Assembly (NCBI RefSeq): GCF_004010195.1 | Contig: NC_057719.1 | Coordinates: 30,189,853-30,253,852, forward strand | Origin: Chiloscyllium plagiosum | Taxonomy: Eukaryota | DNA length: 64,000 nt | Reading direction: 5' to 3' | Shown here: one piece after another, positions 7,431 to 54,452 of the stretch | Position numbering within the stretch: the stretch's first letter is position 1 | Layout: each line of letters opens with the position of its first letter | Notes under the pieces: generated by a model | Seen by the model: only the letters and a program-made list of their open reading frames with translations | Database searches by the model: none | What the model was told of the DNA's origin: nothing | Made by a program: the position numbers and the translations under genes

Positions 7431-8124
7431 GTTATAACTCCAAGTCCTCCATTCTCTGCAACATCCTGGTAAATCTCTTTTGAACCCTCTCCAACTCAAT
7501 AATATTCTTCCTATAACAGGATGATCGTAACTGGACACAGTACTTCAGAAGAGGCTTCACCAATGTCCTGCACAACCTCAACACTTCTCATCTTCTATAC
7601 TCAAAGGACTGAGCAATGAAGGCAAGCGTGCTAAACTCCTTTTGTAACCACCCTGTCTCTATATGATGTAAATGTCAAAGAATTATATACCTGAACTCCT
7701 AGGTCCCTCTGTTCTACAGCACTAATCAAGGCCCTCCTATTAATTGTATAAGTCCTGCCCGTGGTTGTTATGCTGAAATGCAATACATCGCTTTTATCCA
7801 AATTGAACTCCATCTGCCATTTTCAGCCATTGACTCATTTGATCAATGTAATCTTAGTAGACCACCTTCACCATCAGCTATGCCACCAATTTTGGTGTCA
7901 TTCATAGATTTACAAACGATACCTTCGATATTCTCATCCCAATCATTTATACAAATGAAAATCAATAGAGGCTCCAGAACCAATCCCTGCAGAACACCGC
8001 TGGTGACAGGCCTCTAGTCTGCAAAGCAGCCTTCTACCACCACCCTGTCTCCTGCAGTTAAACCAATTATCTATCCAATTGGCAAGTTCACCCTGAATCC
8101 CATGTGACCAAACTTTACTAATTA

Positions 8125-8301
8125 GTTTCAAAGTGTGGCACTGGAAAAGCACAGCAGGATAGGCAGCATCAGAGGAGCGGGAGAATCTATGTTTTGGGCA
8201 AAAACCCTTCCTTGGATGCTGCCTGACCTGCTGTGCTTTTCCAGTGTCACCCCCACCTTTTGACTCTGATCTCCAGCATTTGCAGTCCTCACTTTCTCTC
8301 A
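8125..8301. mobile_element. Inverted (head-to-head) Penelope-like pLTR pair
   Basis: 11-bp TSD TTTACTAATTA at 8114-8124 and 8302-8312; the two arms are reverse complements of the same repeat. Confidence 0.8.
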
Positions 8302-8517
8302 TTTACTAATTACTCTACCATGCAAATCTTGTCAAAGGCTTTACTAAAGTTTAAGTAAATAATATCTACTGCTCTGCCCTCATCAATCTTTTTGTAACTT
8401 CCTCAAAAGACACAATCAAGTTTGAGACATGATTTGCTTCACACAAAACCATGCTTACTATCCCTAATCAATTTTTGCCGATCTAAATGTTTATAAATCC
8501 TATCTTTAAGAATCACT

Positions 8518-9910: not shown

Positions 9911-12392
9911 ACGCTCTCGCTGTCTCTCTCAAACTAATCCTTCTGCCTCCCCTTGGTCCATATTCCTTCATTCCTTCAATATTCATATGCTTATCTAAAA
10001 GTCCCTTAAATTTATCATATCTGCTCCCATCACCACTCCTGGCAACACGTTGTACACTCCTAGCACACTCTGTTTTCAACCTTCTCTAATGCAAGCAATA
10101 TTCATTTGCCCTGTCTTTGTTTTCTGACCATTCTCTGCCTCATGAGATGTAACGGGTTTAGTCGAAATGCGCAAAGAAAACATGTTCTGATTAACCATAG
10201 ACCCTGGAACCAGATATAGGACTTTGGGCAAAAGTGGGTGGGGGGAATTATTAGTGAGAACGTTTTTACACAGCTAATGGTTTTGACCTGAAGCTTGCTG
10301 TCTATGTGGATGGTGGAAGCCAGGACAATGATTTTGAAATGAATTGATTAGGCACTTGGAGAAATTAATTTGCAGGGTGACAGGATGACGTGGGGAGAGT
10401 GGGACTGAATAGCTTGCTGTACAGAGATCTGTCAAAGACCTGATGGACTGAATGGCCCTCTTCTGTGCCATTATGATTCTGACTGATACTTCAAAATCTG
10501 AACAATAAATGTGCATTAATCAGTTGTGTTTTTTGATCTATTCAGTTACTTCTTAAAATAACATCTCAATTTGCCATTAACAAATTCATGCTTGTGGTCC
10601 TTGATTAACTCCTATCTTTTTCAAGACACCATGATTTTATCATAAACTATGAATATGATGAGTTTAGCCACAATTGATGTTGGGTAAAATAATCTGTCAT
10701 GACAAAGTTGTTACAACATCCATTCTTGCACCAAAATAAGAATTTTCAGAATTAAGGATTGAGCAATGTACTATGTTCTTTTCTTATTTCATCAGCTCAA
10801 GGTATTACATCATCAAGCTCTTGAGATTTTCAGCACCAGACCTCTATAGTTACATCTAATTGTTGTGTATCCTCTTCAAACAATGTATATACCAGGAAAT
10901 AATTGGGACTCTACTAGCGTAGGCATGTAGAAAATTGAGGCTTCCAGATATAAGACAAATCATAGAATTGTAACCTTCAAGGTCGTCACAGCATTTTGGT
11001 TTTGTTATCGCATGCGTCTGGGATACATTTGTGACAGCTTTCCCAAGAATAAATAGTTACTAGCCTGGTTTTTAATGAGCTTAGTTCCAAACTTCACAAA
11101 TTCATTGGGGAAAACCACCCTAGTAACATTTTAAGAACAATTGAAATGACTGTTTTTATTGTCTTTGCACAGAAGAGCCCCTATTTAGTGTTTGTACATA
11201 ATGATATTTATCTTTAATTTTTACACAAAATCTTTATGTAATCCTTGAAGAATAATATTTATTTCAATGTTGGTGCCCATCTTGCAAATACTCTTGTGCA
11301 TGAGATAATGTAATTGGGAAAGTTTTTTTTGTTTGTTTTTGTATTTGTGCTATCTTCTTGACCAAATAACTAGTTCTATACAGCTTTCTTTGAATATTCA
11401 CTTGGCATTGCTGTAAACAGAATTTTTACTGTACAACCCATGAATCCATGATGTTGTAGTAGAAGTGTAATGTATTAAGAATAAAAAAAACCATTGGAGA
11501 TGAGAACATGTTAAAGTATTGGATGAAATTGATAGAAAAGGTCAGTGTGTATTCTGAAATTGGGGAATAAAACAAATAGATCCTAGAGGAAAGAGGAAGA
11601 TAAAACTACAAAATTATCATGAAATTTCTAGCAAAAGTAGAAGGTGGCTAAAATAGATTGGGAACTTTTCAATGTAATTGCAGTTTAATATAAGGGAGAA
11701 CTGATTACTTCAGTTAAGAAGGATAAATTAAATAGTATGGCTATATTAACAACTGAACAATCTGTGCAATGAAATTTAAAAAAAAGAAATGAACTTCACA
11801 TCTGCAAAGGAAAGCGGATCTGATGGGAAGATTACAGGATGCTGAATGAGCATCAGAACAGTGCTTGGAAGGAAATACAGGGAACTACAAATAAGCATTT
11901 TGGCAGATGATTAATCCCAGTCAGAAATTATTAGAGCACCACGATGGTAAGTGTACAAAGTGAACAGTTGACATCAGCAGTGAGAGGATCATCGCAGGAG
12001 TGGTTATTTGCAGTTCTTCAATCATATATGCTGCTTTATAAGAAAGAAAACTGCCCAAAAAATTGCACTAATCTTTGTTGAGAATGTGTGATCGTCCAAG
12101 TGGACTATTGCAGGCTGTACTGGATTTACAAAAGAAATCTTGAGTGAAGGTCTTCATGAAAGGGCGCTATTAATATTAAGAGTGAAAGTTCAATGCAAAA
12201 ATTTCATATAGATAAAGAAGTCCTTGAAGACAAGAAATAAGTTGTGTGGTAGGGAATGTAAGTCAAAATTTTGAGGGAAAAGGGAAGTGAACCAAGTGGG
12301 ATGTTATTTAATTCAATGCTGGGATGTTTGTAAATCATAACCTACATTAATCTTTTAGACCCAGAAATCTAAACCAAACTACTTGATTTTAT

Positions 12393-12601
12393 AGCTGAAA
12401 ATGTGTTGCTGGAAAAGCGCAGCAGGTCAGGCAGCATCCAAGGAACAGGAGAATCGACGTTTAGGGCATAAGCCCTTCTTCAGAAGAACGGCTTATGCCC
12501 AAAACGTCGATTCTCCTGTTCCTTGGATGCTGCCTGACCTGCTGCGCTTTTCCAGCAACACATTTTCAGCTCTGATCTCCAGCATCTGCAGATCTCACTT
12601 C
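12393..12601. mobile_element. Palindromic Penelope-like pLTR insertion
   Basis: Direct repeat CTACTTGATTTTATAG at 12379-12394 and 12602-12617; inverted arms 12393-12480 and 12484-12571. Confidence 0.88.
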
Positions 12602-12791
12602 CTACTTGATTTTATAGGCATTGAAGTACTGTAGTGGGAAGGTTGTTGAGATTGATAAAATAGTTTTTAAAAAAAACTGCAAAATTTAGCATAAAATCAG
12701 CAAATGAAAGTTAATGCTATAAACTGGGCATTGAGTTTTATTTTAATACAGTTAATCTTATTTTTAACTTTATATTTTGTTTTCCTTATAG

Positions 12792-12929
<138 letters not shown>

Positions 12930-20000: not shown

Positions 20001-21450
20001 TTTTTTCTTCAAAGCATAGGAGACTAAGGGGAGATGTTACAGAAATGTATAAGATTATGAGAGGTATGGATAGGGTGAATGCACTCAGTCTTTTTCTCAG
20101 GGTTGGGGAATTGTGAACTAGAGCATCAGATTAAGGTTAGAGGGGCAAAAATAAAAGGAAATCTGAGGGGCAATCTTTTAAACATATGGAATGACCTGCC
20201 AACAGAAGTGGTTGAGGTGAGTACATTAATAATGTTTAAAAGGCATTTGGACAAATACTTGGATAGGATAGGTTCAAAAGGTTCTGGGCCAAATACAGGG
20301 AAATGAGGTTAGTGTGGATGGAATTATTTGGTCAACATCAACCAGTTTGGGCTGAAGGGTTTGTCTCCATACTGTAGGACTCTATGGCTATATGACTCTA
20401 ATTCCCGCCATTGCTGTTCCACTGTCTTTCCTGCTTGGCTTCTCTCCCAGGCAATCTGGTCAGTCCTCCTTCATGCTTCTGTAATTGCCTTTATTCAACT
20501 GTAATAGTGTTACATCCGATTCTACCTTTTCCCTCTCCAATTGCAGTATAAATCCTATCATATTATGGTCACTACCTCCTAAGGTTTCCTTAACCTTATG
20601 CTATCTTACCAAGTCTGCCTCATTGCATAACACTAAATCCAGTATTGCCTGTTCCCTAGTGGGCTTCACCACAAGCTGCTCCAAAAAACCATTTTGTAGA
20701 CATTCCACAAATTCCTTTTCTTGCAATCCACTGCCAAACTGATTTTTCCCAGTCCATCTGCTTATTGAAGTCCCCCATGAACACTGTAACCTTGCCTTTC
20801 TTACACACCTTTTCTATCTCTTAGTGCATCTTGTGCCCCAAAATCCTGACTACTGTTTGGAGACCTGTACATTATTCCCACTATGGATTTTTTGCTTTTG
20901 CGGTTTCTCAACTCAACCCACACAGATTCTACATCATCTGACCAAACATCGTTTCTTATTATTGACTTAATTTCAATTCTTACTAATAAGGCAATCCTAT
21001 CCCCTCCACCCACCTGCCTATCTTTTCGATAGGATGTATATCCTTGGATATTTAGCTCCCAGTCCTGATGCCCTTGCAGCCATGTCTCCGTGATGCCCAC
21101 CACATTATACCTACTAATTTTGACCTGCATCACCAGCTCATTTACCTTATTTCATATACTGCGTGTATTCAGATATAACCACTTCAATCCTATAATGACT
21201 CTCTCTCTTCTCATTGTCATTCATTTATCCAGTGTGCTTAAAAGTTGATTCCTCACCTTTTCCAAACACTGTCCTATTTTGTGTGCTGGAGACTTTAATA
21301 ACCTTTCCTGAGTTCTCCTTTCCTTTCATTTCTTTTTTCATGTATTTTCATGCTGTTGAATCCACCCTGACAGATGTTAACCTGCTTCTTTGTTTCCCAT
21401 TAGCCATTTATACTCCTTGGAGTTTTACTCTTCCCTTCCCCCATCCCCAT
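17030..21450 (-). mobile_element. Long CR1 LINE (endonuclease to 3' UTR), split by a + strand CR1 at 19065-20400
   Basis: APE motif VVGITETWL..RKDR (20801..21133), RT motifs SGVPQESMLGP and KFSDDTKIGG (17813..18049), 3' tail at about 17033. Confidence 0.88.
19065..20400 (+). mobile_element. 5'-truncated CR1 LINE nested in the older CR1
   Basis: SQHGF..SCLT.LLEFF, DFTKAFDNVPH, SGVPQ motifs; TATGACTCTA tail. Confidence 0.9.
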
Positions 21451-21968
21451 TTTCTAGTCCATCTGATATAGGCACAGCCACAGAGCTGTTAGAGTTGCTA
21501 GGTTTTTGACCTGGTGATGAAGGAACAGCAATGTAGTTTGGATCGTTCATGGTTTGGAAGGGAACTTGGTGTTTCTGTGCATTCTTCCAGGTGGTAGAGG
21601 TTGAGTTTGGATGATGCTGATTGTTGCAGTGCATTTGAAGATGGTACACACTGCAGGCACTGAGTACTGGGGTGGAATGAATGTTTAAGGTGGTGGGTAG
21701 GATGTCAATCAAGTGGGTTGCTTTGTACTCGATAGTGTTGAGCTTCTTGAGTATTGGAGCTACATTCATCTAGAGCAAGTGGAGAATCATGGAGGAAAGG
21801 GAGTCACAGGGGAGGAGGCATAGGGGATATTTACTTAAAGGATAGGGTGGTGTCACTTAGTGGGCCCTACTTTCTGATGCCAGATCACTCGATCAGGCAC
21901 TGATGGTCTTTGAACATAGGATTCCCCAGAAGCCTATAGCTACACATGCCAGAGTTTGTTTATCAAGA

Positions 21969-22428
21969 GGAAGTGAGGACTGCAGATGCTGGAGATCAGA
22001 GCTGAAAAATGTGTTGCTAGAAAAGCACAGCAGGTCAGGCAGCATCCAAGGAGCAGGAGAATCGACGTTTCGGGCATAAGTCCTCCTTCATGGCAGTGGA
22101 TTGCAAGAAAAGGAATTTGTGGAATGTCTACAAAATGGTTTTTTGGAGCAGCTTGTGGTGAAGCCCGCTAGGGAACAGGCAATACTGGATTTAGTGTTAT
22201 GCAATGAGGCAGACTTGGTAAGGTAGCTTAAGGTTAAGGAAACCTTAGGAGGTAGTGACCATAATATGATAGTATTTATACTGCAATTGGAGAGGGAAAA
22301 GGTAGAATCGGATGTAACACTATTACAGTTGAATAAAGGCAACTACAGAAGCATGAAGAAGGACTTATGCCCGAAATGTCGATTTTCCTGCTCCTTGGAT
22401 GCTGCCTGACCTGCTGCGCTTTTTCAGC
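21969..22428. mobile_element. Inverted Penelope-like pLTR pair enclosing a 275-bp captured CR1 segment
   Basis: 14-bp TSD TTTGTTTATCAAGA at 21955-21968 and 22429-22442; 22091-22365 is the reverse complement of 20462-20736. Confidence 0.88.
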
Positions 22429-22544
22429 TTTGTTTATCAAGATCCTGCCAAACATTGGGAATGTTTAATCGGAGCCTGTTTAATCCTCTTGACAGTGGCT
22501 TAGTCAGCATGAAGGTGGAAAGGACAAGATTCTGCCCATTAACA

Positions 22545-23760
22545 TAGTAGACATTTGACCTTGAAGCGTACTCTGCCATTCAATATGATCGTTCCAGATC
22601 ATTGAGTTCAATACCCCTAATCCAGCCCTCCTCCCATATCCTCTGATCCCCTTAATCAAGGGCTTTATCTATGTCCTTGTTGAAAACAATGTTTTGTCTT
22701 CAACCACTTTCTGTGGTAGTGAATTCCACAGGAACACTACTATCTGGGTGAAGAAATTACCGACCCCACCCCCCTTAATCGGTTGTAAAGGGTTTATCTC
22801 TTTATTATTAAAGTATAATCTCTGGTTCTGAACACCATCACTGGGAACATCCTTCCTACATCTAACTTGTCTAGTCCTGGTAAAATTTGAAGTTTCTGAG
22901 ACATCCTACCCTCCCATTCTTTTAATTTCCAATGAATACAATCTTAACCAAACTCAATCTCTCCTCATATCAGTCTTGCTATCCCACAAATCAGTCTGAT
23001 AAGCCTTCACTGTAGTTCCTCAACAACAAGAACATTAGTGAGTGGCATGGTGGCACAGTGGTTAGCACTGTTGCCTCACAGCGCCAGAGACGTGGGTTCA
23101 ATTCCCGCCTCAGGCAACAGTCTGTATGGAGTTTGCGCGTTCTCGCTGTGTCTATGTGGGTTTCCTCCGGGTGCTCCGGTTTCCTCCCACAGTCCAAACA
23201 TGTGCAGGTCAGGTGAATTGGCCATGCTAAATTGTCCGTAGTGTTAGGTGAAGGGGTAAATGTAGGGGAATGGGTCTGGGTGGGTTGCTTTTCGGAGTGT
23301 CGGTGTGGACTTGTTGGGCCAGAAGGGCCTGTTTCCACGCTAAGTAATCTAATGTAATCTTTCCTCGGACGAGGGGAACAAACTGCACTCAATATTCCAA
23401 GTGTACCCTCACCAATGCCCTGTATAATTTCAGCAAGACATCCTTGTTCCTCTATTCAAATCCTCTTGATATGAAGGCCTACATACAATTTGTTTGCTTT
23501 GCTGCCCGCTATGTACTTGTTTGCTTACTTGCATTGATTGGTGCACAAGGACACCCAGGTCTTGTTAAACATTCCCCTCTCTCAATTTACAGCCATTCAA
23601 ATAATAATCTACCTTCCTACTTTTGCTATCAAAGTGGTTAACCTCACATTTATGCACAAATTACTGTATCTGCCATTCATTTGCCCACTCACTCAGACTG
23701 TCCAAATCATACTGCAACATCTTGGTATCTTCTCACAATTCACCATTCCACCTCGTCATG
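22545..23760 (-). mobile_element. Decayed CR1 3' fragment, interrupted by an HE1 SINE
   Basis: Similar to 17030-17900; resumes after 23360. Confidence 0.7.
23041..23360 (+). mobile_element. HE1-type tRNA-derived V-SINE, full length
   Basis: A box TGGCACAGTGG (23051-23061), B box GGTTCAATTCC (23095-23105), V-domain GGGTTTCCTCCGGGTGCTCCGGTTTCCTCCCACAGTCCAAA, CR1-like tail and (TAATC)n end. Confidence 0.9.
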
Positions 23761-24363: not shown

Positions 24364-24863
24364 TTCATTTAAGCATTTAGATTGGTTGTACGAACAGTCC
24401 CGGATGGCATTATTTCTTTATATAAAAATATTCCTTTATGTGACCTTTATGTATCACTATATTTTGCATTTCTCTGAATAAAAGATCTTCTTTAAGCATG
24501 ATCTCATCAAGTAATTGCACATGATTTAAGATGAACTCAGTAGCAGAGTGACCACTTTGAGGTATGTTGCTACACTACATGCTTTTTCCTCAGCTATTAT
24601 TTTTGTCTATTCATTTAGATGATGGTCTTTATAAAGAGAAATTATTTCTTAAAAGCAAAACCTGTGTTTTATTCATTGGCATGTGTGAAATAGCATGCTT
24701 AGTTCTAACAATTCACCTATTGTAATGTATAGCTTTCAGAGTATATGGGCCCAATCAGGATGTTTGCTCACCAGTAGTTAAGCTGGAAAATATTGCAAGC
24801 TTGCGCAAGTTAAAACAAATTTTTCTTTTACCATTACAATAAAACATAAAATTAAGGACAGCC

Positions 24864-24899
24864 TGTCCTGATGAAGGGCTTTTGCCCGAAACGTCGATT
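24864..24899 (+). ncRNA. Minimal type I hammerhead ribozyme motif, intact core
   Basis: TGTC-CTGATGA-A-GGGC-TTTT-GCCC-GAAA-CG-TC-GATT: all conserved core nucleotides, 4-bp stem II, palindromic ACGT in place of helix III, short stem I (C-G, U-A, G-U). Activity untested. Confidence 0.72.
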
Positions 24900-26438: not shown

Positions 26439-26693
<255 letters not shown>

Positions 26694-33900: not shown

Positions 33901-35888
33901 CTGTCGAACTGGGATCCAATGCGATTGATGAAAGAACTGGATAGATTAAGAACTAGAATACAGACAAAGTTTAGGGTACACCCAACTTTATGGAGGATGC
34001 AAAATGGGAGGCCATCCAGAAGAACATAGGTTTGGATAAGGCTTTCAGCAGAGGTGCTGACAAGAGGTTAGAAAAAGGTTGAGCAATGTGTTTGGTAATG
34101 AAGATGCTAAACTGTGAGGCCTGAGAAATTTCAGTCTCTAGAAGCTGCAGTAATTGTTCATTTTGTTATGAAATGACACCTTCTTCTGCTATTACTACTT
34201 TAATCAGAGAAATTTTACACAACCTATGTATATCAGATCACAAAACTAGTTAGTTGGTCACCATTCAATATCTGCATTTACATAACAAGACTGTTCCTAG
34301 AGGAAGTCAGCTCTCACAGAACTATGATCTAGGTCGCAACAACTTCAGGAGGGAAAGAATAAGGTTGTAGAAAGAATATGTTAAGGTTAATAAGGGAGAA
34401 GCATGGGATGTTTTAGCAAGCATGCGGGTACATAAATCCCCAGGACTTGATAAGATGTATTCCAAGTCAGTTAAGTAGAATACAAAGGAATTGAAATAGA
34501 GGGTCTAATGTCACTGGTCTTGAGCTTCTTTTAATATGTAGTGTTGAGGACCAAGTTGAAACTTTGCAAATGATTTAAGATCATTCTAACTGTCATAATA
34601 TATTTAACCATAAGATTTAGGAGCAAAAATAAGCCATTTGGCTGATCGAGTCTGCCATTCCACTGTAATAAGAATTGGCTGATCTGATAATCCTCAATTC
34701 CACTTTCCTATCTTTTCTTCATAACCCTTGATTTCCTTACTGATTTAAAAAGTCTTTCCATCTCTGAGTTATAACTCAATGTTAAAGACTATGTCAACAG
34801 ACCTCCAAGATAAAGAGTTTCACAGATTGACTGACTACCCTCAGAAAAATTCCTCCCTGACTCTGTCTGAACTGGGCAACCCCTTACCCTGAGATTGTTT
34901 TCTTGTCATAGACTTTCCCACAAAGGGAAGCAATCCCTCCTTTGCTATCTATTTTGAAAGCTTGATTTGTATTTTTATTCTCTTGTGTAATAAATGCCTG
35001 TGCTGAAGAGTCTGCAGACTGACTTGCGTGTGTCTGTGAATAACCATCACACTGATAAATTAAATTTTAAAATATATACATCCTCTACCCAAGCAGATTT
35101 CATTGAGATCTGACTTGTCTAGTCACATTAGCTGGGATCACAACAACATATAGCCATACATGTAAACACACAGACTGTATAATCCAATACGCTTCTATGT
35201 TAGGATACAAATCTTTAATGTGAAAAACTCCAAGCTAACACTGTGGCTATGCTACAGACCAGTGCAAAGCAGGGGTTAGTTTACTCAGTGAAGGGAAAAG
35301 GGATATATGCAAGAAAAAGTAAGTGATTGAAATCCACATTCAAATAAATCTCGTATAAATGAGCCAGAATTGCCAAATGCAACACAATCCAGTGCCCAGC
35401 AGATGCTTATCTTTGCCTGGTATTTGCAAATCACCAAGACATTATATAATATAAGTGAAAGTCGTAACATTTTCTGGGGGACAGTAATTGCAAAATGATC
35501 ACATGGAAAGCTAAATAATAAGGACATAAGAACATTTTAAAAGTATAGTTTGGAGGAGGGTATTTACCAGATAGCAGTAGAAACAAAACCAAACACCTTA
35601 AAAGAATAATGCCAATTAGACTGAAGAAATAAATAATTAAGGATTAGCAAACCATAATTTAGCTGGTATGATCCTAATCAATTACAATTAAATCAGAAAA
35701 AGAATCTGTTTCAGCCTCCTTACAGGACAGAAGAGGCAAAGAGAGACAGAAAAAAGCATAGCTGCACAGTTAAAAAGAATAGTATAAAACATCACTTTAG
35801 TACTACAATAGCAAAAAGACTGCCAGAGAAGAGGAAAGCATCTTTAAAAGATGCAAATACAGTAGTCCTGAAATAGAAAGTGGGCACT

Positions 35889-36011
35889 AGGAGAATCGAC
35901 ATTTCGGGCATAAGCCCTTCATCAAGAATCCTGAATGAAGGGCTTATGCCCTGAAACATCGATCCTCATGCTTCTCAGATTCTGGCTGACCTGCTGTGCT
36001 TTTCCAGCACT
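35889..36011. mobile_element. Short inverted Penelope-like pLTR pair with degenerate hammerheads
   Basis: GAATCGACATTTCGGGCATAAGCCCTTCATCAAG followed by CCTGAATGAAGGGCTTATGCCCTGAAACATCG. Confidence 0.75.
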
Positions 36012-37033
36012 GACTCTTGCCCATTGTATAAACAATGCGCTTATCTAAAATGATAATACCAAGGCAATGCTCAGAACTGACAACTAAATTAGTAAACACT
36101 AGGGAAGCTCTGATAGATCAGCAACTGACTATTGTGGTGTCTGTCTTTATCAACATAAAAAGTAGCAGGTCAAGTAAAACAAACCAATTAGTCTTCAATT
36201 CCAGATAAAGTAATGGAATTGGTTGTCTGAAATAAATTTGCTTTAGTACTGCCGTCAGCAAGTAAACATATAAAAAGGTTTTAAACAGGAGCGTACCCTG
36301 CCTGATAATCTACTTGATTTCTTTGAAGTAGCAGAGCATTGTATTCTGACAACTTTCAAAAATCACTGACATAAACTATCAAGAGGCATTTAAAGAAAAT
36401 GCCACAAACAGCTACTAGATAATTCAATATAATGACTGGGAAATGGACAAGACATCAGCTGAAAAGTTTAAAAAAAATATTGGTTAGCAAAGTTAATGGA
36501 GATCCCCAAAATTAGAAATTCAAACTAAATCAATTACATGATTGAGACACTGAATGCTCATTGGTTAAATCTTTGAGTGATATCAAATTGGAGGAGCACC
36601 TGGACTGGAGGCAAGTAACAATGTTATAATAACAGAAACCAAAAATGTGAGTGGACCAAACAATGACCAATGAAATTTAATATACTCTTTCAGTCACAGG
36701 GAAAAAAAAACTGACTTGCCCATTCTCAGAATTATTTTGAAACAGCCAAAGATGAAGTTGAAACTTAGGAGTTTTCATAATCGCTCCATTTGAATATGTA
36801 CAGGCACTGCAAAGTATTTATTCACAAGGTGAAGGGAAATGCTGAGCTCTAAAGCTTAAATCATTTGCTCGCCAGTCATTGGAAGTTGTGATCAAATTAT
36901 TAAGTGTTTTTGTTAGACCATAGATTGGGCACTGTGACCTGTTCTAGTCTTTGAGAAAATGGGGAGTCATTCAATCAGAGAAAAGCCACATGCCTAGAGT
37001 CAGGATCCTGCTGAAAGACTCGAACACTTCAGC

Positions 37034-41899: not shown

Positions 41900-43880
41900 A
41901 AACATATTAATAGTAAAGGCCCATAAGGAACAAGCAGGGTGAGGTGCTCCCTGAAGCAAATACTATGGGAGAAGTACTCAATAAGTACTTTGCTTTTGTC
42001 ATTGCCAAATTAGAAAAGGTGACAATGACCTAGTTGAAAATGTGAATGTTGAGCAACTCAGTAGTATGTTTGAAAATCTCACAACACCAGATTATAGTCC
42101 AACTAGTACTTCCAAATAAACCTGTTGAACTATAGCCTGGTGTTGTGTGATTTTTAACTTTGTCCACCCCAGTCCAACACTGGCACCAGTAGACAGATAA
42201 AGAAGTAGTGCTAAAAAGGCTGACAGCACTCCAGTTGGATATGTCACCATCTCCCAAGGATTTTCAAGGCCAGCAAGAGGTCACTGGACACCACCAGAAC
42301 TGCAACGCTTTCCAAGGCACGGGCCCCTATATCAGGGCGAACCCATTCCAGGGCCCCCTGCCCTTCACAAAGAAAATGCATCCCATATTGCTGAGAAATG
42401 TAATAGAAAAAAATTGCAGAATTGTTGACAGAAATTTTCCAGGCCTCTTTGAACACAGGATTAGTCCCAGGGCACTGGGAATTGCAAATGTGACACCATT
42501 GTTTTTTTTTTAAAAAAAGGCAAAGGATAACCCAGGAAACAACAAACCTGTCCATTTGATATAAAAAATGGGAAAACTGATGGGAGCTAAAGCCATGTCG
42601 ACTGTCTAGTATTAACTTTTTTTTTCCTGAGGTAAATATACACTCAGAAAAAAATAAGTTAATACTAGACAGTCGACATGGCTTTGTCAAGGGCAGATCA
42701 TGTCTGTCAAATTTGACTGAGTTCTTTGAGGTGACATAGGCAGTGAACGAGGGTAATGCTGTGGATGTTGTATCGTTGAACTTTCAAAAAGCATTTGATA
42801 TCGAACTACATGGCAAGTTGGTTAGCACGTTAGAAATGTTTTTAATTAATGGGTCCTTGGCAGCATGAATTAACAGTTGTCTTAAAGATAGGAAACAAAG
42901 GGTAGGTATCTCAGATTGGAGATGAGTTGAAAGTGTTGCTTCCCAGAGATTGGTGTTGGGACCCTTGTTTTTTCTGATTTTATATAAATGATTTGGTCAT
43001 TGAGGAAAAACCCCTAAATTTTCAGAAAATACTAATCTCTGGTGAATAGTGAATTGTGAGGATGGTGCTGGGTAACTTCACGGGAATATTGACAAGCTAG
43101 TCATATAGGCAGACACCTGGCAGCTGAATTTCAATACAGAGAAATGCAAAGGAATGCAATGTTGTAGAAGAATCATGGAGAGACAATACAGGCTCAATGG
43201 TACAACTTTCAGGGAGTACAGGAGCAGAGGAATGTCAAGATTGAAGTGTGCAATGCCTGAAGGTGACTGAGCAAGTTGAAACAGCTAAGAAGGCTTATCG
43301 GATCCTTATGTTCATAAATAGAGGCATAGAGTATAAAAGCAAGGAAGTGAGGCTACACCTCACGAATTATTGGTCAGACCATATTTGGAGCATTATGTTC
43401 AGTTCTGGGCACCTTTTATTCAAGGAAGGATGTTAAGGCCCTAGAGCAAGCTCAAAAAAGGTTTACTAGAATGATAGCAAGAATAAGGGATTTTAGATAC
43501 AAGGAAAGATTACAGAAATTGGGCATATTCTCCTTGGAGCAGAGGTGACTTTATTGAGCTCTTCAAAATTATGAACAATTTTGACAGGTTAAAGAAACAA
43601 ATGTCACTAACTAGGGATCACAATGTTAAGATTGTCAGCAAGAGAGGTAGGAATATGACAAGGAGAAACTTATTTACTCATAGTTGTTAAGACTTGGAAA
43701 GCACTACCTGAAGAGTAGTGAAGGTGGATTTAAAGGAGGTTTCAAAAGAGAGCTAGATATATGTTAGAAAGTGATGAATTTAGAGGGCTAAGGATATAGG
43801 GCTGGAGAATGGGACTAGCTGGGTAGCTCTTTCAGGAACTAATATAAACAGGATAGGTCCAATGGCTGCCTCCTGTAGAG
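41900..43880 (+). mobile_element. Decayed CR1 LINE with nested insertions
   Basis: ANVTPLF, HGFVKGRSCL, FQKAFD and RGIEYKSKEV motifs; TTCTATG tail at about 43880. Confidence 0.8.
42073..42187. mobile_element. Inverted fragment of a second Penelope-like family
   Basis: CACAACACCAGATTATAGTCCAAC followed by its near reverse complement GTTGAACTATAGCCTGGTGTTGTG; related copies at about 52448-52585 and 56850-56992. Confidence 0.6.
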
Positions 43881-50708: not shown

Positions 50709-51660
50709 GACTTCAGTAAGGTGTTCAACAAGGTTCCCCATGGGAGACTGGTTAGCAAGGTTAGATCTCACTGAATACAGGGAGAACTAGCCATTTGGAT
50801 ACAGAACTGGCTCAAAGGTAGAAGACAGAGGGTGGTGGTGGAGGGTTGTTTTTCAGACTGGATGCCTATGACCAGCCGAGTGCCACTAAGATCGGTGCTA
50901 GGTCCTCTACTTTTTGTCATTTTCATAAATGATTTGGATGCGAGCATAAGAGATACAGTTAGTAAGTTTGCAGATGACACCAGAATTGGAGGTGTAGTGG
51001 ACAGCGCAGATGGTTACCTCAGATTACAACAGGATCTTGACCAGATGGGCCAATGGGCAGAGAAGTGGCAGATGGAGTTTAATTCAGATAAATGNNNNNN
51101 NNNNNNNNNNNNNNNNNNNNNNNNNNNNNNNNNNNNNNNNNNNNNNNNNNNNNNNNNNNNNNNNNNNNNNNNNNNNNNNNNNNNNNNNNNNNNNNNNNAC
51201 AAGGATGTTGCAAGGATTGGAGGATTTGAGCTATAGGGAGAGGCTGAACAGACTGGGGCTGTTTTCCCTGGAGTGTCGGAGGCTGAGGGATGACCTGATA
51301 GAGGTTTACAAAATTATGAGGGGCATGGATAGGATAAATAGATAGAGTCTTTTCCCTGGTATTGGGGAGTCCAGAACTAGAGGGCATAGGTTTAGTGTGA
51401 GAGGGGAAAGATATATAAAAGAGATCTAAGGGCCAATGTTTTCACACAGAGGATGGTACGTGTATGGAATGAGCTGCCAGTGGAAGTTGTGGGGGCTGGT
51501 ACAATTGCAACATTTAAGAGGCATCTGTATAGTATATGAATAGGAAGGGTTTGGAGGGAAATGGGCTGGGTGCTGGCAGGTGGGACTAGATTGGGTTGGG
51601 ATATCTAGTCTGGTTGGACCGAAGGGCCTGTTTCTATGCTGTACATCTCTATGACTCTAT
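50709..51660 (+). mobile_element. 5'-truncated CR1 nested in the second-family LINE; contains the assembly gap
   Basis: SVLGPLLFVIFINDLD..SKFADDTRIGG; CTCTATGACTCTAT tail. Confidence 0.9.
51095..51198. other. Assembly gap (104 N)
   Basis: Run of N. Confidence 1.
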
Positions 51661-52670
51661 GCCTAGTGTTGCTCCTGGCATGCCCTCCTGTGCTCTCCAT
51701 TGAACCAGATTTGATCCCTTGACTTGATGGTGGTGGTTGGGTGGGGGATATGTTGGACCATGAGGTTATAAATTGTGCTGGAGTGCAATTCTGTTGCTGT
51801 TGGCCCACAGTGCCTTATGGATGCATAGTCTTGAGTTGCTAGATCTGTTCGAAGTCTGTCCCATTTAGTACAATATCACGCAATATCAATATTCTTGATG
51901 TGAAGACTGGATTTATCTCCAAAAGGATTGTGTGGTGGTCATGTTTGCTGATGTTGTCATGCATAGATGCATCTGCAGCAGGCAGATTGATGAGCATTAT
52001 GTCAAGTATGGTTTTCCATATTGTTGGTTCCCTCACCACCTGTCACAAATCCAGTCTAACCACTGTCTTTTAAGACCTGACCAGCTCCACTAGTAGTGCT
52101 GCTGCTGAGCCACTGTTGATGGTGGACATTGAAATCCCATTTTGTGCCCATGCCACCTTCAGTGCTTCCTCCATGTGTTGCTCAACAATGAGGAGTACTG
52201 ATTCATCAGCCGAAAGAGGAAGGTCATCAGCTGGTGGCTTCCATGCCTATATTTAACTTGAAGCCATGGGACTTCATGTGATTTGGATTTAATGTTGAAG
52301 ACCCCCAGGGCAACACCCTTCTTACTGTACACCACTGTGCTGCCATGTCTGCTGGGTCTGTCGTGCAGTTGGGATAGGGCAAATCCAGGGATGGCAATGA
52401 TGGTATCTGGGACATTGTCTGTCTGTCTGTCAGTCACACTAAGGAATTGGAGATGCTGGTGTTGGACTATTGTGGACTAGGTCAGAAGTCATACAACACC
52501 AGGTTATAGTCCAACAGGTTTATGTGAAATCACAATCAGAATCGCAAATCGCCCTCTGAAAGCTTGTGATTTCAAATAAGCCTATCAATCATACTCAAGA
52601 AATCATACCTATGTCAGGTTGTTGCTTGAATAGTCTGTGAGACAGATCCTCACAGACTGTGAGACAGCCC

Positions 52671-52797
52671 TTCCTGAAGTAGGGCTTATGCCCGAAACAT
52701 CAATTCTCCTGCTCCTTGGATGCTGCCTGACCTGCTGCGCTTTTCCAGCAACACATTTTCAGCTCTGATCTCCAGCATCTGCAGTTCTCACTTTCTC
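52671..52797 (+). mobile_element. Penelope-like pLTR fragment, mutated hammerhead core
   Basis: 14-bp TSD CTGTGAGACAGATC at 52635-52648 and 52798-52811; core reads CTGAAGTA-GGGC-TTAT-GCCC-GAAA-CATC. Confidence 0.8.
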
Positions 52798-53497
52798 CTG
52801 TGAGACAGATCTCCCAATTTTGTCACTAGATCCCAGGTGTTACTAAGGAGAATTTTATCATGTTGCTATTTCTGCCATTGTCTTTTCAGGTGCTGAGGTT
52901 AATGTCAGGTGGTCTGTTTGGTTTCACTTCTTTGTTTAGACTACATAGTGATTGATGCAACTGAAAGGCTTGCTAGGCCAGTTCAGAGGGCATTGAGAGT
53001 CAACCACATTGCTGTGGCTCTGGAGTCACACACATGCCAAACCAGATGAAGATGGCAGATTTCCTACCTTGAAGAAAATCACTGTGCGTTTATTGGCAAA
53101 ATAGTAAGGTAAAAAGAAGTTATTTAGCCAGGAGTTTCAATAATGTGCAGCTTTATAGCATGACCTGAACAAAGAGCTACATTTTTAAAGTTATCTTTGT
53201 TATATTACATTTGTAGTGATGGGGTTAAAGCTGGTACTCTGTAAGAATACTTTGTACTATCTTCTTTATGACATCTTGTAATTGCAGTCGCATAAGCTAC
53301 TTCCCTTTTGTGTATTGATTTTATTGCTATTCTGGACTACTTCTCATGTTATTGTATCTTGGCATCTGTCTCAGTTGAAGTTCAGGTGATTATTTTTGCT
53401 GTTCAAATTCAGTTTTGAGCTTTGACTTCATGAAACTGAAATCTGAAATCTCCTATACGTGAAATCAAAGCTAAAGACTGATGCACAGAAACATTTG

Positions 53498-53737
53498 GAG
53501 AAAGTGAGGGCTGCAGATGCTGGAGATCACAGTTGAGAGTGTGATGCTGGATAAGCACAGCAGGTCAGGCAGCATCCGAAGAGTAGGAAAATCAATGTTT
53601 CAGGCATAAGCCCTTCATCAGGAATGAGGCAAAATGAGGCTCCTCATTCCTGATGAAGTGCTTATGCCCGAAACGTCGATTCTCCTACTTCTCGGATGCT
53701 GCCTAACCTGCTGTGCCTTTCCAGCACCCCACACTCA
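53498..53737. mobile_element. Inverted Penelope-like pLTR pair
   Basis: 15-bp TSD GCACAGAAAC(A/C)TTTG at 53483-53497 and 53738-53752; + strand core at 53650-53677 has a stem II mismatch. Confidence 0.85.
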
Positions 53738-54452
53738 GCACAGAAACCTTTGCCAATCCATAAATTACCACCAACCATAAATAGTAGATATAAGACTTGT
53801 GCTGTACTTTCATAATTTTTATGTTACTGTCATTTTCTTTAGATTGGAATTAATTTTGATAATGTGATCTATACCTACAGGGAGTAGATAGCCATTAGTA
53901 GAGAAAGTAAACCTTTTTTTATTTGGAAGCATTTACTTCATTTGTTCAATAATATTAAGCGTTGTGTGGTTCTTAAATTATCATATTCCAATTGAAATAA
54001 ATGTTTGAAAATATAAGCACCTGAAATTTCAACCCTATAAATTTTTCACAGCATGTATGCTTCATTTAGGAATGAATTGAGAATTAAAGCGAATGAATCT
54101 GATGAGATACAACTCACTATACTAATTATTTGCCAGCAGCCATTGAGTGGGAGGAAGGAAAGTGAGATTAACTGAAATTATAAATAAGTTCTAGATGAAC
54201 TTAATTCAGTTACCTAATTCTGATGTAACAATGTTCAAATTCTTGGGAGACAAATCGGTGTTAGTTTGAAACATCACCTCAGTTCAATTTCACTATTGGT
54301 TGTGAATATCAAGTATCTTTCTAGGAACTACTCAAACTAATTTAATATATTTTTTGTGGAATGAGCTTTGCAATACAATATTTTCAGGATTACTTTGGAA
54401 GATGATTATATTTAGAACACAGAGAAGCTTTTTTCACTGTTCTATGGTATGA

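What the first reader, a model, noticed from the sequence alone, without database searches (positions are those of the whole stretch)
21955..22442. PLE insertion that captured 275 bp of neighbouring intron DNA in inverted orientation
Seen: between two inverted pLTR arms, inside one 14-bp TSD, 22091-22365 is the gap-free reverse complement of 20462-20736, about 1.35 kb upstream (6 mismatches by eye). Both copies share an in-frame TAG in the CR1 endonuclease frame (22224-22226 and 20601-20603), so the template was this dead local copy rather than an active CR1 master. The junction lies where the ribozyme segment (AGCCCTTCTTCAGG) resembles the CR1 sequence AGTCCTCCTTCATG, and that chimeric 14-mer also ends the left arm (22079-22092). 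Inference: microhomology-driven template switching onto nearby DNA or nascent pre-mRNA, followed by fold-back copying. It records the insertion mechanism and leaves a potential 275-bp dsRNA stem in the EML5 pre-mRNA.
Basis: partly seen in the sequence, partly recalled or inferred. Interest (0 to 1): 0.7.

Follow-up and report, generated by a model that had tools for sequence, protein, structure and literature searches.

The report
Local DNA patch seals Penelope seam
A short jumping-gene insertion in an intron carries, between its two mirror-image halves, a reversed 275-base copy of a dead repeat lying 1.2 kb away, most likely a repair patch made as the halves were joined: a clear example of a known kind of copying scar, not a new system.

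Summary
22091-22365 is the gap-free reverse complement of 20462-20736 (6 mismatches). It sits between head-to-head hammerhead-bearing Penelope-like arms inside a perfect 14-bp TSD, in an intron of a + strand EML-family gene. The template was this local copy: donor and copy share the stop and six other bases where 91-98% of family contig depth differs, and the copy haplotype occurs in a second sample at roughly one-locus depth. The best explanation is locally templated repair synthesis that joined two same-sense cDNA ends through an 11/14 microhomology, plus a fold-back step. That it 'records the insertion mechanism' is unproven. A related species has the arms at this site, but whether it has the patch is unknown. 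Donor-copy divergence (2.2%) is below cross-species flank divergence (4.2%; p 0.04-0.08), so a later break at the palindrome centre remains open. Pre-mRNA templating is possible only in one order of steps. The inner seams rest on the assembly alone, and editing is untested. Human L1 templated insertions are the known analogue. This scan noted similar seam patches before on other DNA (10 unchecked notes, 6 in this genome), so the class matters more than this copy.

The parts
21955..21968 (.). Target-site duplication, left copy (14 bp)
21969..22090 (-). Tail-bearing arm of the hammerhead-bearing Penelope-like element, 3' end outward; tail 21969-22000 (32 nt)
   Evidence: 84-93% to the four other tail-bearing window copies of its type
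22079..22092 (+). Left 14-mer, identical to donor 20462-20475; donor-type at columns 3, 7, 13; last 2 nt overlap the patch
22091..22365 (+). 275-bp inverted copy of 20462-20736 (endonuclease frame on +, stop at 22224-22226)
   Evidence: haplotype over 22194-22350 in a second sample
22352..22428 (+). Tail-less arm, 3' end outward; first 14 nt overlap the patch; ribozyme core altered; outer end about 15 nt shorter than in the closest window copy
22429..22442 (.). Target-site duplication, right copy
20462..20736 (-). Donor segment, 1219 nt left of the TSD, inside a dead APE-endonuclease LINE fragment (CR1-type by recall)
20462..20475 (+). 14-nt microhomology: 11 of 14 match to the ribozyme segment of the closest subfamily
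20739..20742 (-). 4-nt match to the family cDNA end just outside the far breakpoint; possible starting microhomology (weak)
20801..21151 (-). Upstream part of the donor LINE fragment, Exo_endo_phos hit
   Evidence: E 8.4e-5, below cutoff
12792..12860 (+). Candidate upstream host exon (EML-like)
   Evidence: splice-signal scan plus recalled likeness; not Pfam-tested
26472..26650 (+). Downstream host exon, EML first beta-propeller (ends approximate)
   Evidence: PF23409, E 5.3e-10

Best explanation
This is a Penelope-like head-to-head insertion whose seam holds a 275-bp inverted copy of local DNA, most likely made by repair synthesis on nearby single-stranded chromosomal DNA while the insertion was being sealed. 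Inferred steps: (1) Both 3' ends of a 14-nt staggered cut primed reverse transcription, one at the tail start and one at the tail-less start, and both stopped at the ribozyme's 5' core. (2) The two cDNA ends had the same sequence and could not anneal. (3) One end switched onto the neighbouring dead LINE and copied 275 nt; the 11/14 match between LINE and ribozyme served to close, or to start, the bridge. (4) A short fold-back switch rewrote the left 14-mer to donor type. (5) Both copies then decayed independently. Shown: anatomy, local template, microhomology, donor-type bases in both arms. Inferred: priming from both ends, the order of steps, timing at insertion, and a DNA rather than RNA template. 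It is a one-off scar with no sign of mobility or function.
For: Local template: donor and copy share 7 bases at which 91-98% of family contig depth differs in each of 4 runs, plus 2 weaker sites, among the 10 core rows listed (40 of 71 rows shown). At 94% likeness, 22278-22301 is covered at depth 17-21 in X5 and 9.2 in X9, against flank contigs of 12-24 and 8-12. Independent decay: at 22167 the donor keeps the family base; at 22223, 22228 and 22343 the copy apparently does (no family difference listed; inferred from truncated tables). Microhomology: 11/14 at the breakpoint, per-site chance 4e-5; within 5 kb only one other non-family site reaches 11/14 for that 14-mer. Ten other window copies have C at column 3 (10 of 10) and G at column 13 (9 of 10); both arms here have the donor's T at both. 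Two-start anatomy: the three other TSD-bounded inverted pairs in the window (8130, 12393, 53497) each pair a tail-bearing with a tail-less arm. This matches two RT start sites and extension of both target strands by a PLE protein in vitro (PMC11167929). The closest window pair (12393-12601) joins at the same columns. Another copy (52649-52667) has a 19-nt filler made of a 10-nt inversion and an 11-nt re-copy of its own target site. Precedent: L1 templated insertions, R2 snap-back junctions, SD-MMEJ.
Against: Organism B has the arms at this site, so the insertion predates the split. Yet donor-copy divergence is 6/275 (2.2%) against 50/1204 (4.2%) for B's flanks; one-sided Fisher p 0.079, or 0.040 if 22359 is primer-derived. 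B's core contig 22249-22350 has depth 9.2, like one locus, and G at 22304 where both A copies have A; both are weak hints of a later, A-only capture. Column 7 differs between the arms, which needs a later C-to-T change or patchy repair. A 275-nt tract 1.2 kb away is longer and far more distant than typical L1 templated insertions (<250 bp, within 15 bp) or SD-MMEJ (within 30 nt).
Confidence: 0.52

Rival explanations
1. An ordinary palindromic PLE insertion came first. Later a break at its centre (hairpin or cruciform) left two same-sequence ends, which were repaired by the same locally templated synthesis. The patch then records DNA repair at a fragile palindrome, not retrotransposition.
For: Donor-copy divergence is about half of A-B flank divergence although the insertion predates the split (p 0.04-0.08). 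B's core contig is at one-locus depth. B's right-flank contig has 13 unfitted letters before 22420, so the right arm was probably altered later in one lineage. The TSD cannot tell the two timings apart.
Against: The divergence test is marginal; unequal rates or gene conversion between copies 1.35 kb apart would also lower it. B's contig appears to share the copy's T at 22273, which the donor lacks (no difference listed there). Collapsed contigs make depth unreliable. A co-insertional-looking filler exists at another window copy.
Confidence: 0.32
2. The element's reverse transcriptase jumped from the PLE RNA onto the nascent EML pre-mRNA near 20736 and copied it back to 20462. There the new 14-mer annealed to the other arm's cDNA.
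For: The gene is on +, so cDNA of the pre-mRNA laid on the top strand has exactly the observed orientation. A 4-nt match to the cDNA end lies beside the far breakpoint. RNA template jumps are known for R2 and L1.
Against: Resected + strand DNA gives the same product. If the 14-mer was the priming site the template must be the minus strand, which excludes pre-mRNA. Nothing in the patch, such as a splice junction, requires RNA.
Confidence: 0.12
3. The structure is a mis-assembly, or one member of an amplified PLE-LINE chimeric subfamily.
For: No direct evidence. The inner seams have not been confirmed by reads.
Against: The copy haplotype is present with 0 differences over 22194-22254 and 22225-22350 in a second sample and study. 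The differences fall on both copies with family polarity. Both arms are rewritten to donor-type bases inside a perfect TSD. Depth at 94% likeness is about 1-2 loci.
Confidence: 0.04

Closest known systems
Inverted-pLTR insertions of endonuclease-bearing Penelope-like elements (PMC8557442 passages; PMC3846280 passages; PMC11167929 parts 1-2 of 4)
   Same: Head-to-head arms, a one-sided 30-40-bp tail (32 nt here), a TSD, and a minimal hammerhead in the repeat.
   Different: No ORF here, and the seam holds 275 bp of local host DNA rather than a short palindrome. The published explanation for the seam is self-priming (PMC3846280), not local templating.
Human L1 templated insertions and twin priming (bioRxiv 10.1101/2024.08.27.596794 passages; PMC11702581 passages)
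   Same: A genomic segment is duplicated inside a retrotransposon insertion; the proposed mechanism is cDNA pairing with nearby DNA; both target ends are extended.
   Different: L1 templates are typically <250 bp and within 15 bp of the site (22 cases reported). Here it is 275 bp from 1.2 kb away, between two arms copied from the same RNA region.
SD-MMEJ and MMBIR-type templated insertions (PMC5728401 abstract; PMC8421209 passages); R2 snap-back junctions (PMC11371274 passages)
   Same: Synthesis on nearby or self sequence creates the homology that joins two ends; inverted orientation; more than one round of switching.
   Different: The described tracts lie within about 30-100 nt of the break. 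This tract is longer and more distant, and no enzyme can be assigned.
Host-DNA capture by Penelope pLTRs in Adineta vaga (PMC3846280 passages)
   Same: Non-element DNA enclosed by pLTRs within a TSD.
   Different: There it lies between direct pLTRs or as a spacer and can be a whole gene moved in trans. Here it is a local, inverted, non-coding patch at the inversion seam.

Membership tests
EN+ Penelope-like element insertion | Minimal type-I hammerhead in the pLTR | tested here: met
   Family copies show the conserved core boxes around a 4-bp stem II (descriptor in PMC4209133 passages). Rfam gave no hammerhead hit. In this insertion both arms have the core and stem II altered.
EN+ Penelope-like element insertion | Inverted 5'-truncated copy, head to head | tested here: met
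EN+ Penelope-like element insertion | One-sided 30-40-bp tail | tested here: met
   32 nt, 21969-22000; same pattern in three other window pairs
EN+ Penelope-like element insertion | Target-site duplication | tested here: met
   14 of 14 here; 10-16 bp at five other copies
EN+ Penelope-like element insertion | Repeat linked to an RT plus GIY-YIG ORF somewhere in the genome | not testable with these tools
   No genome held; no such domain among the 15 frames scanned of 146 listed; metagenome scan 0 matches
L1-type templated insertion | Non-element genomic segment duplicated inside a TSD-bounded insertion | tested here: met
L1-type templated insertion | Template typically <250 bp and within 15 bp of the site; L1 body | tested here: not met
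   275 bp, 1219 nt away, PLE-type arms. Works like it; not filed as a member.
L1-type templated insertion | Copied during integration | tested here: inconclusive
   Divergence p 0.04-0.08 leans later; presence of the patch in organism B unresolved
SD-MMEJ / MMBIR templated insertion | Junction microhomology and inverted local template | tested here: met
   11/14 at one end; 2 nt, plus an offset 4 nt, at the other
SD-MMEJ / MMBIR templated insertion | Template within about 30-100 nt of the break | tested here: not met
   1.2 kb away; compare PMC5728401 abstract and PMC8421209 passages
SD-MMEJ / MMBIR templated insertion | Dependence on a specific repair polymerase | not testable with these tools
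   needs genetics
CR1-clade LINE (donor) | APE-type endonuclease frame | tested here: met
   PF03372 E 8.4e-5, below gathering cutoff, on the upstream ORF of the same fragment
CR1-clade LINE (donor) | RT phylogeny or 3' end placing it in CR1 | not tested

The most novel reading that the evidence does not exclude
Head-to-head Penelope insertions are made by priming both target ends on the same RNA region. That leaves two same-sense cDNA ends which the cell must bridge by templated synthesis. These very high-copy elements would then routinely duplicate host DNA from up to kilobases away, seeding inverted duplications and intronic dsRNA genome-wide. This locus, with donor-type bases written into both arms, would preserve the order of steps: local switch, microhomology closure, fold-back.
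Probability: 0.3. Interest if true: 0.6.

Novelty: new variant of a known kind. Interest (0 to 1): 0.32.

Why it matters
How PLEs form their inverted repeats is described as unresolved (PMC8557442, PMC11167929). Seam patches are fossil intermediates that can separate self-priming from two-ended priming plus repair. They become a real test only when counted genome-wide and dated against empty or patch-less alleles. I found no description of kilobase-range local patches at PLE seams in five searches (open-licence papers only). As a single locus it is a neutral scar in a dead repeat; the predicted 271-bp pre-mRNA stem has no evidence of function.

Tried and rejected
Genome-wide BLAST could not be run because no genome is held; within the window the donor is the only hit for the core. 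No listed contig piece bridges either inner seam in X5, X9 or X13 (24 pieces shown, 13,862 hidden), and X13 has no cover in 3 of 30 bins. This is not evidence either way, since contigs drop short low-depth links between repeats. No empty-site joint was among the 15 joints shown of 809. No RNA holder was listed. RNA run X21 (about 2% read) gave zero depth over 22098-22349, so editing could not be tested. Rfam found no hammerhead; its miRNA-family hits are hairpins below gathering score. A metagenome scan for the ribozyme motif gave 0 matches. The Atlas search did not separate EML5 from EML6. Earlier-findings look-ups by sequence, relatives and near place were empty. Of 6 other seams checked for local fillers, only 52649-52667 gave a convincing match; the other 5 gave at most 7-10 nt, chance-level or self-palindromic. 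Rejected: the shared TAG alone as proof of source. Rejected: simple end-joining of an unmodified left arm, which needs a chance change to the donor base at column 7 plus a chance T at column 13. PMC9977147, PMC13174262 and the 2026 retrozyme preprint (passages) held no matching precedent.

Full report
Observation. The structure is as described. 22091-22365 is the ungapped reverse complement of 20462-20736, 1354 nt away, with six mismatches at 22167, 22223, 22228, 22273, 22343 and 22359. It lies between two arms of a short repeat (21969-22090 on minus, 22352-22428 on plus, both 3' ends pointing out), inside a 14 of 14 identical TSD. Both copies share an in-frame TAG in an otherwise open 91-codon frame. 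The upstream ORF of the donor fragment hits an APE-type endonuclease family weakly; the CR1 label is recalled, not tested. EML beta-propeller exons lie on the + strand, placing donor and copy in one intron of about 13.6 kb. EML5 versus EML6, and the 'shark' label, were not tested.

The element. About eleven other copies of the arm repeat lie in the window. They carry the core boxes and stem II of a minimal hammerhead (PMC4209133, passages), although Rfam does not detect them. Three other TSD-bounded inverted pairs (8130, 12393, 53497) each join one arm with a roughly 32-nt tail to one without. This is the published signature of endonuclease-bearing Penelope-like insertions (PMC8557442 and PMC3846280, passages). 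In vitro, a PLE protein cuts and extends both target strands and starts at two RNA sites that define the tail (PMC11167929, parts 1-2 of 4). I infer that both target ends primed cDNA. A linked RT/GIY-YIG ORF could not be tested.

Was the template local? Yes. No genome is held, so public runs were used. At 88% likeness the LINE family is deep over the core. Donor and copy share seven bases (22134, 22161, 22199, 22218, 22224, 22235, 22320) at which 91-98% of family depth reads another letter in each of four runs, plus two weaker sites, 22139 and 22304 (40 of 71 rows shown). The stop alone would not suffice, since 2-3% of depth there is not the family G. At 94% likeness, 22278-22301 is covered at depth 17-21 in X5 and 9.2 in X9, about one to two loci by flank depth, so no amplified chimeric subfamily is evident. 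X5, a second sample and study of the best-matching organism A, holds the copy's haplotype with 0 differences over 22194-22254 and 22225-22350. The donor keeps the family base at 22167, and the copy apparently keeps it at three other sites (inferred from absence in truncated tables). Both have therefore decayed separately, which argues against an assembly duplicate. Outer junction contigs enter the arms by 24-29 nt, under the tool's 31-letter bar. The inner seams are not read-confirmed.

Junction logic. In ten other window copies the ribozyme 14-mer has C at column 3 (10 of 10), T at 7 (9 of 10) and G at 13 (9 of 10). The donor has T, C, T. The left arm equals the donor exactly; the right arm has T, T, T. 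The 11/14 match at the breakpoint has a per-site chance of 4e-5, and one other non-family site within 5 kb reaches it, so homology picked the breakpoint. The far breakpoint has 2 nt of overlap and an offset 4-nt match to the cDNA end (weak). Two orders fit. In the first, the top-strand cDNA snaps back onto exposed + strand near 20736 and copies to 20462, where the new 14-mer anneals to the other arm; a fold-back switch then rewrites the left 14-mer. In the second, the bottom-strand cDNA primes at the 14-mer on the minus strand, copies to 20736 and folds back. Only the first allows pre-mRNA as template, and resected DNA serves equally well there. Both need one later change or patchy repair at column 7. 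The closest window pair joins at the same columns. The copy at 52668 has a 19-nt filler built from an inversion and a re-copy of its own target site (1 of 6 seams checked).

Timing is the weak point. Organism B has the arms at this site (X9 21400-21996 and 22420-22727; X14 21892-21996), so the insertion predates the split. B's flanks differ by 50/1204 (4.2%; three X9 contigs, 26 nt counted twice), donor and copy by 6/275 (2.2%); one-sided p 0.079, or 0.040 without 22359. B's core contig is at one-locus depth and has G at 22304 where both A copies have A, but appears to share the copy's T at 22273. These hints conflict. A later break at the palindrome centre presents the same two ends and would leave the same scar. 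I put capture at insertion from DNA at 0.52, later repair at 0.32, pre-mRNA jump at 0.12 and artefact or subfamily at 0.04; these are judgements, not computed values.

dsRNA. Folding 20400-22470 pairs 271 of 275 donor bases with the copy and none arm to arm; the duplex energies are -507.7 and -142.4 kcal/mol. It is the most perfect inverted repeat of over 100 bp in the window self-comparison. Expression and editing are untested.

Known kin and novelty. It works like L1 templated insertions (22 cases, typically <250 bp within 15 bp, bioRxiv 10.1101/2024.08.27.596794, passages; three cases in PMC11702581, passages). It also resembles R2 snap-back junctions (PMC11371274, passages) and SD-MMEJ/MMBIR insertions (PMC5728401, abstract; PMC8421209, passages). 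It fails their distance criteria, so it is not filed under them. PLE capture of host DNA is known from Adineta in a different geometry. Five searches found no account of local patches at PLE seams. Earlier notes of this scan (15 distinct, unchecked) include 10 such seam patches, 6 in this genome; they are leads, not evidence. Verdict: real, a variant of a known kind of copying scar, informative mainly as one of a countable class. Interest 0.32.

Noticed in passing
window 52635-52811: Single PLE arm with a 14-bp TSD whose 5' seam holds a 19-nt filler (10-nt inversion of the flank plus an 11-nt re-copy of the target site) and a short snap-back of the ribozyme stem: a miniature of the same process.
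   Followed up: partly
window 12379-12617: Closest relative of this insertion: inverted pair with a 16-bp TSD and no filler; both arms share a variant base, suggesting one source RNA.
   Followed up: partly
window 8114-8312, 35888-36012, 53483-53747: Further head-to-head pairs of the same family with differing seams; 53630-53645 has an 8-nt re-copy.
   Followed up: partly
window 24856-24868: 6-bp hairpin at the 5' junction of a divergent family copy.
   Followed up: no
window 42589-42685: Non-PLE hairpin with about 34-bp arms (33 of 34 matching); Rfam miRNA hits below gathering score; possibly a MITE remnant or small inverted duplication.
   Followed up: no
window 22407-22420, run X9 contig: Organism B's right-flank contig has 13 unfitted letters before 22420, so the shortened outer end of the right arm may be specific to organism A; the letters were not shown.
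   Followed up: no
bins 21994-22047: Summed contig depth of the arm family is about 10^7 against about 15 for unique flank, pointing to a very high copy number (not a copy count); family reads occur in RNA run X21.
   Followed up: no
window 51095-51198: Assembly gap of 104 N inside a LINE copy, so the assembly is scaffolded.
   Followed up: no
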